DNA of 64,000 bases from Escherichia coli (GTDB taxonomy: Bacteria; Pseudomonadota; Gammaproteobacteria; Enterobacterales; Enterobacteriaceae), in assembly GCF_017348835.2 (NCBI RefSeq), contig NZ_CP071375.1. The stretch is one strand, 5' to 3'. Each line of letters starts with the position of its first letter. Position 1 is the stretch's first letter. A program made the position numbers. Positions 61,901 through 64,000 of the stretch are shown here, piece by piece.

Positions 61901-64000
61901 ACTTAATGATGTATAAGTGATTGAATTTTGGCGGAGAGAGGGGGATTTGAACCCCCGGTGGAGTTGCCCCCACTCCGGTTTTCGAGACCGGTCCGTTCAG
62001 CCGCTCCGGCATCTCTCCGTTCAGATGGTTGCCATGATGCCAGGAAATTTGGCATTTTAACAGTCCCTGTCCGTGCAATTTTGTTCAAGTGACGAGTTTG
62101 CGAGCAAAACGATGATTAAGTGGCCCTGGAAAGTACAAGAATCAGCACATCAAACTGCCCTTCCCTGGCAGGAAGCACTATCGATCCCCCTTTTAACGTG
62201 TCTGACGGAACAGGAACAAAGCAAATTAGTCACTCTTGCCGAACGTTTTTTACAGCAAAAGCGGCTTGTTCCTTTACAGGGCTTTGAACTGGATTCATTA
62301 AGAAGCTGCCGGATAGCACTTCTATTTTGCCTACCCGTTCTGGAGTTAGGACTGGAATGGCTGGATGGTTTTCATGAAGTCTTAATTTATCCTGCGCCAT
62401 TTGTGGTCGATGATGAATGGGAAGACGATATCGGTCTGGTGCATAACCAACGTATTGTTCAGTCAGGTCAGAGCTGGCAGCAAGGGCCTATCGTTTTGAA
62501 CTGGTTGGATATACAAGATTCTTTTGATGCTTCTGGTTTTAACCTGATTATTCATGAAGTCGCTCATAAGCTGGACACCCGTAACGGCGATCGCGCAAGC
62601 GGAGTTCCCTTTATTCCGTTGCGTGAGGTTGCTGGCTGGGAACACGATCTTCATGCTGCAATGAACAACATTCAGGAAGAAATCGAATTGGTTGGCGAGA
62701 ATGCGGCGAGCATTGATGCTTATGCTGCCAGTGATCCTGCTGAATGTTTTGCCGTACTTTCTGAATATTTCTTTAGCGCCCCAGAACTTTTTGCTCCTCG
62801 TTTCCCTTCATTGTGGCAACGTTTCTGCCAATTTTATCAACAAGATCCTTTGCAGAGACTGCATCACGCTAATGATACAGACTCGTTTTCGGCGACGAAT
62901 GTTCATTAATTAACAACTTTGCAGATTAATTAACCAATTGAAATGACTTATGAAATTTAGTGTTGACAGACAAGGTACCGCTAAGTAATATGCGCCCCGT
63001 TCACACGATTCCTCTGTAGTTCAGTCGGTAGAACGGCGGACTGTTAATCCGTATGTCACTGGTTCGAGTCCAGTCAGAGGAGCCAAATTCCGATGCTTAC
63101 GCTTCCTTATAAGTCCTTATTCAATTGTGATTCAATAAGTTAGCGTAAAAATCTTTCCCGATGCGTATTCAGTTTTCCCTCCGCATCCGGTTAATTTGGT
63201 GGTCAGGTTGGTTCGATTCTGGAGTGACCCCCAAATGTCTTTAAACGATTCAAAAATCCGTAACTTAAAACCCTCTTCAAAACCCGTCAAACTGTCTGAT
63301 TCACACGGTCTGTATCTGCTGGTCAATCCCGGCGGCTCGCGTATCTGGTATCTCAAGTATCGCTTCAGTGGCAAAGAGTCCCGCGTCAGTCTGGGTGCAT
63401 ATCCGCTGGTTTCACTTGCTGAAGCAAGACAACAGCGTGACGATATCCGTAAGCTACTGGCACAGAATATTAACCCCACCCACCAGCGCATGGCAGATAA
63501 AGCCGCAGCTTCTCCGGAAAAGTATTTTAAAGCCGTGGCGCTGGCATGGCATAAAACCAACAAAAAGTGGTCGGCTGATTATGCGGAACGCATTCTCGCC
63601 AGCATGAATAACCATATATTTCCGGCGATTGGTCATCTGCCCGTTACCACGCTGAAAACGCAGCATTTCACGGCGTTACTGCGGGTGATTGAGGATAAAG
63701 GCTTTCTGGAAGTCGCGTCCCGAACCCGGCAGCAACTCTGTAACATCATGCGTTACGCCGTACAACAGGGATTCACTGAAAATAATCCGGCGCAGCATCT
63801 GGAAGGCGTTACTGCGCCGCCGGTGAAAAACCACCATCCAGCCCTGCCGCTGGAACGGCTGCCAGAACTGCTTGCGCGGATCGGTGATTATCAGCAGGGC
63901 CGGGAGTTAACAAGGCTGGCGGTGATGCTGACTTTGCATCTGTTTATCCGTTCCAGTGAACTGCGCTTCGCCCGCTGGAGCGAGATTGATTTCAGAAACA

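What the first reader, a model, noticed from the sequence alone, without database searches (positions are those of the whole stretch)
63010..64000. A second integrative element begins at asnT at the window edge
A P4-type integrase gene starts 150 nt downstream of tRNA-Asn and runs off the window. Two tRNA-targeted islands therefore sit within 2 kb of each other (serU prophage and asnT island), separated only by mtfA.
Basis: partly seen in the sequence, partly recalled or inferred. Interest (0 to 1): 0.35.

Follow-up and report, generated by a model that had tools for sequence, protein, structure and literature searches.

The report
Decayed defence island at asnT tRNA
The gene running off the window edge is the intact integrase of a small mobile island inserted in the asparagine tRNA gene asnT; the island once carried an anti-phage system but insertion sequences have truncated it and removed its far end, and the site and island type are already well known in E. 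coli.

Summary
tRNA-Asn lies at 63010-63085. An ORF starts at 63235, 149 nt downstream, and runs off the window. It has the two N-terminal domains of a P4-type integrase.

The window matches E. coli PE164 (2 mismatches in 21.1 kb), so that genome shows what lies beyond the edge:
- The integrase is full length (420 aa) with an intact catalytic set.
- A 12.7-kb island remnant follows: an IS66-family element, a second recombinase-like gene, MazEF, a Ner-like HTH gene and a 153-aa gene.
- The cargo is AT-rich: a HEPN_LA2681 gene plus a NACHT "EruA" antiphage gene.
- An IS629-like element cuts eruA at codon 409. The far attachment site and about 3.6 kb of yeeJ are missing, so the island probably cannot excise.

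Intact relatives at three asn tRNA genes share the backbone and a 20-bp direct repeat. Their cargo varies between antiphage systems and type VI secretion or Rhs modules.

It is not the HPI or the pks island (integrases 70% identical), not CP4-44, and not a ROD21-like, GMT or P4-satellite element. The asnT and serU sites are published E. coli defence-island hotspots #16 and #17.

The parts
61929..62018 (-). serU, tRNA-Ser(CGA). Its 3' end faces the integrase of the neighbouring prophage (ORF 60851-61876). Context only.
   Evidence: ARAGORN; ORF list; PGAP annotation of the identical PE164 sequence.
62112..62909 (+). mtfA, the only protein-coding gene between the two tRNA integration sites.
   Evidence: PGAP annotation of PE164, L001 19213-20010, which equals window 62112-62909; ORF list.
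62963..62991 (+). Sigma-70-like promoter match (TTGACA, 17 nt, TAATAT) just upstream of asnT. Probably the tRNA promoter.
   Evidence: Consensus scan: 1 site found against 0.8 expected in shuffles, so this is weak evidence on its own.
63010..63085 (+). asnT, tRNA-Asn(GTT), the integration target. The gene is complete because the island supplies an identical 3' end.
   Evidence: ARAGORN; same position relative to mtfA as in K-12.
63070..63089 (.). attL identity block CCAGTCAGAGGAGCCAAATT: the last 16 nt of asnT plus 4 nt. This is the left boundary of the island.
   Evidence: The same 20-bp block recurs as attR in the intact relatives L003, L004, L005 and L009 and in F2_81 (L014 4057). In L004 and L005 the sequence beyond attR matches the K-12 sequence after asnT. 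Published asn-tDNA islands have 17-20 bp repeats that include the last 16 tRNA bases (PMC4891358).
63195..63206 (+). TTTGGTGGTCAG, a candidate arm-type integrase-binding repeat (inferred). Relatives have two tandem 12-nt units here; the window has one.
   Evidence: The motif is conserved upstream of int in L003, L004, L005, L009 and in the HPI and pks islands. A GGTGGTC pair also sits about 65-85 nt before attR in all four intact relatives. Background is 0.10-0.25 hits per kb. No binding was tested.
63224..63232 (-). GTGACCCCC, an inverted copy of the same motif directly before the int start codon (inferred regulatory or arm site).
   Evidence: Motif scan; conserved in all relatives and in the HPI and pks upstream regions.
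63235..64000 (+). 5' 766 nt (255 codons) of the P4-type tyrosine integrase gene. The full gene is 1263 nt (420 aa) and would end at window-equivalent 64497.
   Evidence: Translation; Pfam Arm-DNA-bind_3 and Phage_int_M; full-length copy in PE164 and F2_81; 51% identical to P4 Int. R239, K278, H342, R345, H369 and Y379 are invariant across six relatives. Only R239 lies inside the window.

Best explanation
Window 63070-64000 is the left end (attL plus the first 255 codons of int) of a small genomic island integrated into the 3' end of asnT by a P4-type tyrosine integrase.

Shown:
- The window is E. coli PE164, or a near-identical strain.
- In PE164 the integrase is complete. It is followed by a conserved backbone: a PF12835 'Integrase_1' protein, MazEF, a Ner/SfsB-like HTH protein and a 153-aa protein. 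An IS66-family element interrupts the backbone.
- After the backbone comes low-GC cargo: HEPN_LA2681 plus a NACHT protein that NCBIfam labels antiphage EruA.
- A 1310-bp IS629-like element cuts eruA at codon 409 and directly abuts yeeJ at about nucleotide 3610 of the K-12 gene. The eruA N-terminal part, an OLD-family ATPase gene, the P arm, attR and the 5' part of yeeJ are therefore missing.

Inferred:
- The island arrived by Int-mediated recombination between a circular attP and the 20-bp identity block at the asnT 3' end. The N-terminal arm-binding domain would contact GGTGGTCA-type repeats on both arms.
- Without attR the island can no longer excise.
- The Eru gene is probably inactive, because the segment removed includes the only stretch with a P-loop-type Pfam match (weak, below threshold).
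- The intact int gene is a leftover.
For: Identity with PE164: 12,001 of 12,001 nt in one piece and 2 mismatches in 21,101 nt.

Downstream gene content is the same in PE164 and F2_81, with 3 mismatches over 13 kb.

Domain assignments.

EruA: the PE164 946-aa ORF covers profile positions 407-1318 only and scores 639.8 bits against a cutoff of 1000. It equals residues 409-1354 of the N17 protein at 97% identity. The N17 protein passes the cutoff over the full model (1129.8 bits).

Breakpoint and IS ends, with no 3-bp target duplication.

yeeJ resumes at K-12 yeeJ nucleotide ~3610.

No second copy of the asnT 3' end lies within 21 kb downstream in PE164. Intact relatives have one 13-17 kb away. 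F2_81 keeps the ATPase fragment, P arm, attR and yeeJ 5' part next to another IS629 copy after an inversion.

Composition: backbone 53-60% GC, cargo 34-40% GC.
Against: The window contains only attL and 61% of int. Everything downstream is read from a genome that is near-identical but not proven to be the source (2 mismatches).

The antiphage role of EruA rests on an NCBIfam family label. I found no paper for it in the held library, and PADLOC v2.0.0 gave no hit.

The arm-site assignment is a conservation argument, and shared ancestry could produce the same pattern without function.

No recombination directionality factor was identified.

How the PE164 deletion arose is unresolved. The IS next to yeeJ has the opposite orientation to the yeeJ copy in F2_81, and its junction is offset by 1 nt, so simple homologous recombination between such copies does not explain it.
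Confidence: 0.88

Rival explanations
1. It is the left end of the Yersinia high-pathogenicity island (HPI, yersiniabactin) or of a pks/colibactin-type island. These are the classical asn-tRNA islands of E. coli.
For: Same site and same integrase type. The HPI sits at asnT in about 2,100 of 5,426 complete genomes, in the ~73% nucleotide identity class. The sequence upstream of int, including the GGTGGTCA repeats, is conserved with the HPI and pks islands.
Against: The integrase is only 70% identical in protein (about 73% in DNA) to HPI and pks Int. In PE164 and F2_81 no ybt/irp/fyuA or clb genes follow, whereas they start within 200-300 bp of int in true HPI and pks loci.
Confidence: 0.02
2. 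It is an intact island that is still mobile, with its far boundary lying further downstream than I looked.
For: The integrase is full length with all catalytic residues. Relatives at three asn tRNA genes show that this island type moves.
Against: There is no attR-like repeat in the 21 kb after asnT in PE164, on either strand. The cargo gene eruA is cut exactly at an IS end, and core-genome yeeJ sequence follows immediately. F2_81 shows where the missing end went.
Confidence: 0.05
3. It is an isolated integrase remnant with no island cargo.
For: The window alone cannot exclude it. Decayed integrases at tRNA genes are common, and frameshifted copies occur in ST2747 and in the Integrase_1 gene of O145 RM11626.
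Against: Both genomes with the identical mtfA-asnT-int junction carry about 11 kb of backbone and cargo after a full-length int.
Confidence: 0.03
4. It is a member of another described element class that uses tRNA or similar sites: a ROD21-like (EARL) island, a P4-like phage satellite, or a Gamma-Mobile-Trio island.
For: EARL islands also use Asn-tRNA genes and a P4-like integrase (PMC6035254). P4 Int is the closest characterised phage integrase. GMT islands likewise carry mixed defensive and offensive cargo (bioRxiv 10.1101/2023.03.28.534373).
Against: None of the hallmark genes was annotated or detected in the proteins scanned: no relaxase, TraD, type IV pilin, H-NS-like gene or RDF with its 843-bp partner (EARL); no P4 primase, capsid-size or cos functions; PHROGs hits only to integrase and a Ner-like repressor. 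GMT uses a DNA_BRE_C / Phage_Integr_2 / StbA-like trio and inverted-repeat sites, and none of these was found here.
Confidence: 0.02

Closest known systems
asn-tRNA genomic islands with P4-type integrases in Enterobacteriaceae (HPI at asnT, pks island at asnW, Klebsiella GIE492 and other asn-tDNA islands)
   Same: Integration into the 3' end of an asn tRNA gene, with int immediately downstream of attL. The direct repeat includes the last 16 tRNA bases (20 bp here; 17-20 bp for GIE492, PMC4891358). All use an Arm-DNA-bind_3 / Phage_int_M / Phage_integrase protein. The upstream repeat motif is conserved with the HPI and pks islands. This island type uses several of the identical asn tRNA genes.
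   Different: The integrase is a distinct clade (70% protein identity to HPI and pks Int). The island is small (13-17 kb when intact). Its backbone differs (PF12835 protein, TA module, Ner-like HTH, 153-aa protein). Its cargo is antiphage or T6SS/Rhs modules, not siderophore, genotoxin or microcin clusters.
E. coli defence-island integration hotspots #16 (yeeJ-mtfA, tRNA-Asn) and #17 (mtfA-zinT, tRNA-Ser CGA) of Hochhauser et al. 2023, including their 'integrase-only' islands of unclear mobilisation
   Same: Exactly the same two chromosomal sites. #16 was occupied in 393 of 897 genomes and #17 in 116 of 816 (PMC10121019 Table S1). That paper describes defence-carrying islands that have integrases but no other recognisable mobility genes, which is what this backbone looks like.
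   Different: I could not confirm that this backbone or the HEPN_LA2681-EruA cargo is among their listed islands, because the stored Table S2 is truncated. Here the defence gene is broken.
Adjacent serU and asnT pathogenicity islands of ExPEC (PAI-536-serU / PAI-536-asnT, and the same pair in CFT073)
   Same: Two tRNA-targeted elements flank mtfA, the same layout as in the window (PMC7545054).
   Different: In ExPEC the serU element is the 22-kb TcpC island and the asnT element is the HPI. Here the serU element is a lambdoid prophage and the asnT element is a decayed defence island.
Gamma-Mobile-Trio (GMT) islands
   Same: Small mobile 'armoury' islands with a conserved recombinase-containing core and variable cargo that mixes antiphage systems and T6SS effectors. 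The asn-tRNA family sampled here shows the same mix.
   Different: The core proteins and target sites differ, so this is a functional analogy only.

Membership tests
P4-type (arm-domain) tyrosine integrases | N-terminal arm-type DNA-binding domain (Pfam PF13356, formerly DUF4102) | tested here: met
   Residues 3-86, E=5e-25, 87.8 bits against a cutoff of 27, on the in-window fragment.
P4-type (arm-domain) tyrosine integrases | Central core-binding domain (PF22022) and C-terminal catalytic domain (PF00589) with the R-K-H-R-H-Y set | tested here: met
   PF22022 lies in the window. PF00589 (64.5 bits) is present in the full-length PE164 copy. R239, K278, H342, R345, H369 and Y379 are invariant in the six-sequence alignment. 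Only R239 is inside the window. The assignment of these columns as catalytic is by position and established knowledge of the family.
P4-type (arm-domain) tyrosine integrases | Full-length sequence similarity to phage P4 Int | tested here: met
   51% identity over residues 1-412, E=9e-126.
P4-type (arm-domain) tyrosine integrases | Element bounded by direct repeats of the tRNA 3' end (attL and attR) | tested here: inconclusive
   attL is present at 63070-63089. attR is absent in PE164. It is present in the relatives L003, L004, L005 and L009 and survives, displaced, in F2_81.
High-pathogenicity island (HPI) | ybtS-ybtX-ybtQ-ybtP-ybtA-irp2... yersiniabactin cluster directly after int | tested here: not met
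   Present in MS14384; absent in PE164 and F2_81.
High-pathogenicity island (HPI) | HPI-type integrase sequence | tested here: not met
   70% protein identity and about 73% DNA identity. Members of the window's own class are 91-100% identical.
K-12 CP4-44 cryptic prophage | Location beside cobU; flu/yeeR/yeeS/cbtA-cbeA gene content | tested here: not met
   CP4-44 is at K-12 2,066,020-2,078,748, 21 kb from asnT. The K-12 asnT site is empty. None of those genes follow int in PE164.
EARL / ROD21-like islands | Asn-tRNA site with a P4-like integrase | tested here: met
   Definition from PMC6035254.
EARL / ROD21-like islands | RDF with an adjacent 843-bp gene near the far att site; MobA/MobL relaxase, TraD, type IV pilin genes | tested here: not met
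   None are annotated in PE164, F2_81 or the intact relatives. Pfam, NCBIfam and PHROGs scans of the PE164 backbone proteins show none. Direct comparison with an EARL integrase was not done.
Gamma-Mobile-Trio islands | Tandem GmtY (DNA_BRE_C), GmtZ (Phage_Integr_2) and GmtX (StbA-like) genes; insertion at inverted-repeat sites | tested here: not met
   The Pfam domains found are Arm-DNA-bind_3, Phage_int_M and Phage_integrase, plus Integrase_1, Phage_int_SAM_2 and HTH_35. The site is a tRNA 3' end with direct repeats. Definition. No direct sequence comparison with GMT proteins was made.
Eru antiphage system (NCBIfam NF058535, EruA) | Full-length match at or above the curated cutoff (1000 bits) | tested here: not met
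   The PE164 copy scores 639.8 bits over profile positions 407-1318 only. The intact N17 homologue scores 1129.8 bits over 1-1318. The PE164 copy is therefore a truncated member.
Eru antiphage system (NCBIfam NF058535, EruA) | Demonstrated protection against phage | not testable with these tools
   Only the family label is available. No paper was found in the held library.
E. coli defence-island hotspot #16 (Hochhauser 2023) | Insertion between mtfA and yeeJ at tRNA-Asn(GTT) | tested here: met
   mtfA, asnT and the island lie in the window and in L001. yeeJ follows, 5'-truncated. Hotspot definition.

The most novel reading that the evidence does not exclude
The window's integrase may mark an unnamed family of small asn-tRNA 'armoury' islands. 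In nine of the ten loci examined (the exception is frameshifted in int and in the PF12835 gene), a P4-type Int is accompanied by the same backbone: a PF12835/PF12834 second recombinase-like protein, usually a TA pair, a Ner-like HTH protein and a 153-aa protein with no family match. GGTGGTCA repeats sit upstream of int in every locus checked for them and before attR in the four intact relatives. The islands move among at least three of the four identical asn tRNA genes and swap cargo between antiphage systems (Avs3, HEPN-EruA plus OLD ATPase, nuclease plus UvrD, an ABC three-component system) and T6SS/Rhs weapons. They have no recognisable transfer or packaging genes. If the second recombinase and the 153-aa protein are dedicated mobility or cargo-exchange factors, this would be a mobile-element class distinct from the HPI, EARL, GMT and P4-satellite types.
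Probability: 0.25. Interest if true: 0.4.

Novelty: new member of a known kind. Interest (0 to 1): 0.15.

Why it matters
For annotating this window it settles what the truncated ORF is and where the island boundary lies (attL at 63070-63089). It also shows that the element is a fixed, decayed defence island and not a virulence island such as the HPI, which matters when judging a pig-derived strain. More broadly it adds one example of IS629-type elements eroding a defence island together with the neighbouring adhesin gene yeeJ. It also points to a recurrent asn-tRNA island backbone whose mode of transfer is unknown. None of this would surprise a specialist: asnT and serU are textbook and catalogued integration hotspots.

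Tried and rejected
- Direct repeat of the asnT 3' end downstream: searched for tRNA 3'-end segments of 12-30 nt, allowing up to 2 mismatches, on both strands of 21 kb of PE164. Only the tRNA itself was found.
- HPI, pks and CP4-44 comparisons: rejected on integrase identity, gene content and location.
- EARL/ROD21-like, GMT and P4-satellite membership: rejected on gene content and site type.
- PADLOC v2.0.0: no hit for any backbone or cargo protein. The EruA match came only from the newer NCBIfam release.
- Origin of the Eru/Hyo names: three literature look-ups (whole-word search, DefensePredictor, and the 2026 STAND survey) found nothing relevant. An unrelated SlyA-family 'EruA' exists in AIEC.
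- Hochhauser Table S2 (element typing at hotspot #16): not pursued, because the stored file is truncated and very large.
- Searches for a description of the PF12835 backbone or of asn-tRNA T6SS islands found nothing specific.
- Homologous recombination between the eruA and yeeJ IS copies as the cause of the PE164 deletion: rejected, because the IS end facing yeeJ is IRR in PE164 but IRL in F2_81 and the junction is offset by 1 nt.
- Inversion between the eruA and yeeO IS copies does explain F2_81.
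Full report
**1. Observation**

ARAGORN places tRNA-Asn(GTT) at 63010-63085 (+) and tRNA-Ser(CGA) at 61929-62018 (-). 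An ATG at 63235, 149 nt after the tRNA, opens a frame that stays open for 255 codons to the window end. The fragment matches Pfam Arm-DNA-bind_3 (E=5e-25) and Phage_int_M (E=1e-25), well above the curated cutoffs. That includes the layout: prophage integrase ORF (60851-61876), serU, mtfA (62112-62909), asnT, int.

**2. What lies beyond the window edge**

The last 12 kb of the window is 100% identical, in one piece, to E. coli PE164 (NZ_CP114128.1; pig, Nanjing). Over 21,101 nt there are 2 mismatches, at window 43427 and 45618. I therefore used PE164 as a proxy (locus L001; L001 position = window position - 42899).

Only one other complete genome of 5,426 has the identical mtfA-asnT-int junction: F2_81 (pig, Australia). 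Its island differs from PE164's at 3 positions in 13 kb.

**3. Anatomy in PE164**

Coordinates are L001 positions; add 42899 for window-equivalent positions.

| Feature | L001 position | Evidence |
|---|---|---|
| int, 420 aa, intact | 20336-21598 | |
| IS66-family element, 2345 bp, no 8-bp target duplication | 22100-24444 | |
| 294-aa protein, Pfam Integrase_1 + Phage_int_SAM_2 | 24637-25521 (-) | |
| MazF / MazE | 26371-26961 (-) | |
| 68-aa HTH_35 protein (SfsB/Ner-like; PHROG 'transcriptional repressor') | 27310-27516 (-) | |
| 153-aa protein with no family match, overlapping the HTH gene | 27513-27974 (-) | |
| HEPN_LA2681 protein, 534 aa | 28345-29949 (-) | |
| 946-aa ORF (truncated eruA) | 29962-32802 (-) | |

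The backbone is 53-60% GC, the last two genes are 34-40% GC, and the chromosome flanks are 47-50% GC.

**4. The cargo is a broken antiphage gene**

The 946-aa ORF matches NCBIfam antiphage_EruA (NACHT-domain antiphage protein) over profile positions 407-1318 only. It scores 639.8 bits against a cutoff of 1000.

Six other complete genomes carry the cargo at about 98% identity. In N17 and MS20657 the gene encodes 1354 aa and passes the cutoff over the whole model (1129.8 bits). The PE164 ORF equals residues 409-1354 of that protein at 97% identity.

In those genomes the island sits at a third asn tRNA gene, between yeeO and cbl. It ends with an OLD-family ATPase (AAA_21/AAA_15 plus OLD-like TOPRIM) and then attR.

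Homology between PE164 and N17 stops at L001 32861|32862. That is exactly where a 1310-bp IS629-like IS3-family element begins (IRL TGAACCGCCCCGG; L001 32862-34171). Its flanks are GAT and CTG, so there is no 3-bp target duplication. Immediately after the IS, the sequence resumes inside yeeJ at about nucleotide 3610 of the K-12 gene.

The following are therefore missing from PE164:
- 408 codons of eruA;
- the ATPase gene;
- the P arm and attR;
- the asnT-yeeJ spacer;
- the 5' 3.6 kb of yeeJ.

No second copy of the asnT 3' end exists in the 21 kb downstream.

**5. Independent support from F2_81**

F2_81 has the same eruA|IS junction, but the IS is followed by the 3' part of yeeO and an inverted yeeN-amn-shiA block. 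About 20 kb further on, next to another IS629 copy, lie:
- a 188-aa OLD-TOPRIM fragment;
- the P arm;
- attR (GGCGATC|CCAGTCAGAGGAGCCAAATT|CTAAAAATTCGC);
- the 5' part of yeeJ.

The orientations fit an inversion by recombination between the IS copy in eruA and an inverted copy in yeeO. PE164 has that yeeO copy too, with a GAC target duplication.

The PE164 deletion itself is not explained by recombination with the F2_81-type yeeJ copy. That copy faces the other way, and its junction differs by one base. I leave the deletion mechanism open: an IS-mediated adjacent deletion or an independent insertion followed by further events.

**6. Family context**

Integrase DNA identity across the 5,426 complete genomes, counting the best hit per genome:

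| Identity to the PE164 int | Genomes |
|---|---|
| >=99% | 4 |
| 90-95% | 3 |
| 80-90% | 488 |
| ~73% | 2137 |

One sampled member of the ~73% class is the HPI at asnT (followed by ybtS...irp2), and another is the pks island beside yeeO. Both integrases are 70% identical in protein to the window's.

Seven sampled loci of the closer classes, from eight genomes (N17 and MS20657 are the same island), are JNEC-KY175, RMDEC465, FDAARGOS_1337, N17/MS20657, O145 RM11626, E7-1N7 and ST2747. All share the int, Integrase_1, (TA), HTH and ~153-aa backbone. In ST2747 int and the Integrase_1 gene are frameshifted, and in O145 RM11626 the Integrase_1 gene is. They occupy asnT, asnW or asnU. Their cargo differs:
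- Avs3;
- an ATP-dependent nuclease plus a UvrD-type helicase;
- an ABC three-component system plus DUF2169/DUF4150;
- HEPN-EruA plus OLD ATPase;
- VgrG/PAAR/TssFG modules;
- an Rhs toxin.

The intact members are 13-17 kb long and bounded by a 20-bp direct repeat, CCAGTCAGAGGAGCCAAATT. In L004 and L005 the sequence beyond attR matches the K-12 sequence after asnT, so those are clean insertions.

**7. Candidate arm sites (inference)**

All relatives, and also the HPI and pks islands, carry TTTGGTGGTCAG-ATTTGGGGTCAG about 45 nt upstream of the int ATG, plus an inverted GTGACCCCC at the ATG. The four intact relatives also carry GGTGGTCATTCTGGTGGTC about 65-85 nt before attR. Elsewhere the 7-mer occurs at 0.10-0.25 per kb.

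The window has lost one 12-nt unit: only 63195-63206 remains. This explains its 149-nt tRNA-int spacing, against 161 nt in the relatives. These are plausible binding sites for the Arm-DNA-bind_3 domain, but nothing was tested, and conservation by descent is an alternative explanation.

**8. Mechanism**

From established knowledge of P4-type and lambda-type tyrosine integrases, plus the anatomy here, I infer the following sequence:
- A circular island carrying attP recombined with the 20-bp block at the 3' end of asnT.
- Int bound core sites through its central and catalytic domains and arm sites through its N-terminal domain.
- Integration regenerated a complete tRNA and placed int next to attL.

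Excision needs attL x attR, and probably a directionality factor that I could not identify (the Ner-like HTH protein and the PF12835 protein are candidates). With attR deleted in PE164, excision is no longer possible.

The truncated EruA lacks its first 408 residues. The only Pfam hint of a P-loop NTPase region in the intact protein is a weak, sub-threshold NPHP3_N match at residues 70-112, which lies in the missing part. The copy is therefore probably inactive (inference).

**9. Comparison with what is known**

- asn tRNA genes are classical integration sites for islands with P4-like integrases: the HPI, the pks island, Klebsiella asn-tDNA islands with 17-20 bp repeats and demonstrated excision (PMC4891358), and ROD21-like islands (PMC6035254).
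- The serU-island / mtfA / asnT-island layout is standard in ExPEC strains 536 and CFT073 (PMC7545054).
- Hochhauser et al. 2023 list yeeJ-mtfA (tRNA-Asn) as defence-island hotspot #16 (occupied in 393 of 897 genomes) and mtfA-zinT (tRNA-Ser CGA) as #17 (116 of 816). They also note 'integrase-only' defence islands of unknown mobilisation (PMC10121019).
- K-12 has an empty asnT site, and CP4-44 is elsewhere.
- GMT islands are a functional analogue with different core proteins and target sites.

**10. Verdict**

The element is a decayed member of a known kind, sitting at a catalogued hotspot, so interest is low.

The only mildly novel thread is the recurrent, apparently unnamed backbone shared by these asn-tRNA islands and their mixed defensive and offensive cargo. 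That thread lies outside the window and rests on ten sampled loci.

**Limits**

- Everything beyond position 64000 is read from a near-identical proxy genome.
- The EruA function rests on a database label.
- Arm sites, the loss of mobility and the loss of Eru function are inferences.

Noticed in passing
window 60851-61901 (L001 17952-19002): PGAP flags the integrase of the serU prophage as frameshifted. The open frame in the window stops at 61876, 25 nt before the annotated end. The RMDEC465 copy carries the same flag. The prophage may therefore also be unable to excise.
   Followed up: no
window 63206/63207: A 12-nt deletion (one ATTTGGGGTCAG unit) relative to all relatives and to the HPI and pks islands, in the conserved region upstream of int. 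It shortens the tRNA-int spacing from 161 to 149 nt.
   Followed up: partly
window 43427 and 45618: These are the only two differences between the window and the RefSeq PE164 record over 21.1 kb (A/C and G/A). The source is PE164, another version of its assembly, or a sister strain.
   Followed up: no
window 62073-62909: The mechanical ORF for mtfA starts at a GTG at 62073 (278 aa), but PGAP annotates the start at 62112 (265 aa).
   Followed up: no
L001 22100-24444 (window-equivalent 64999-67343): An IS66-family element (tnpA/B/C) sits between int and the PF12835 gene. It has no 8-bp target duplication, and 13 bp present in JNEC-KY175 (ATAGATAACCACG) are missing at the site.
   Followed up: partly
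L014 (F2_81) 1981-3316; L015 (PE164) 6262-7571; L011 (O145 RM11626) 18489-19798: IS629-like copies disrupt yeeO (GAC duplication) in both pig strains. They also disrupt yeeJ in F2_81 (GTT duplication) and in an unrelated O145 strain. F2_81 has a 26-nt partial extra IS end at 3291-3316. IS insertion into yeeJ looks recurrent.
   Followed up: partly
L015 1-3448 (PE164 record 1848000-1851447): Next to the 3' end of the asn tRNA gene beside nac (asnV position), PE164 has PTS IIC, rpe, SDR and hxlB genes where K-12 has ldtA. This may be another insertion at an asn tRNA site (Hochhauser hotspot #13). PE164 has no second related integrase.
   Followed up: no
L009 13713-17777 (N17 EruA), C-terminal ~120 residues; the same residues in L001 29962-32802: The C-terminus reads ...DKRADIIVSLPxIKIPIEIKRDY..., which looks like a PD-(D/E)xK nuclease motif. 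EruA may therefore carry a C-terminal nuclease effector in addition to its HEPN_LA2681 partner. This is seen by eye in the alignment. Pfam reports no domain there.
   Followed up: no
L001 34172-37655 compared with K-12 yeeJ: The surviving 3' part of yeeJ is only about 86% identical to K-12 yeeJ, while the adjacent yeeL-shiA region is about 98% identical. PGAP also notes an internal stop. The adhesin gene is a divergent allele as well as being truncated.
   Followed up: no
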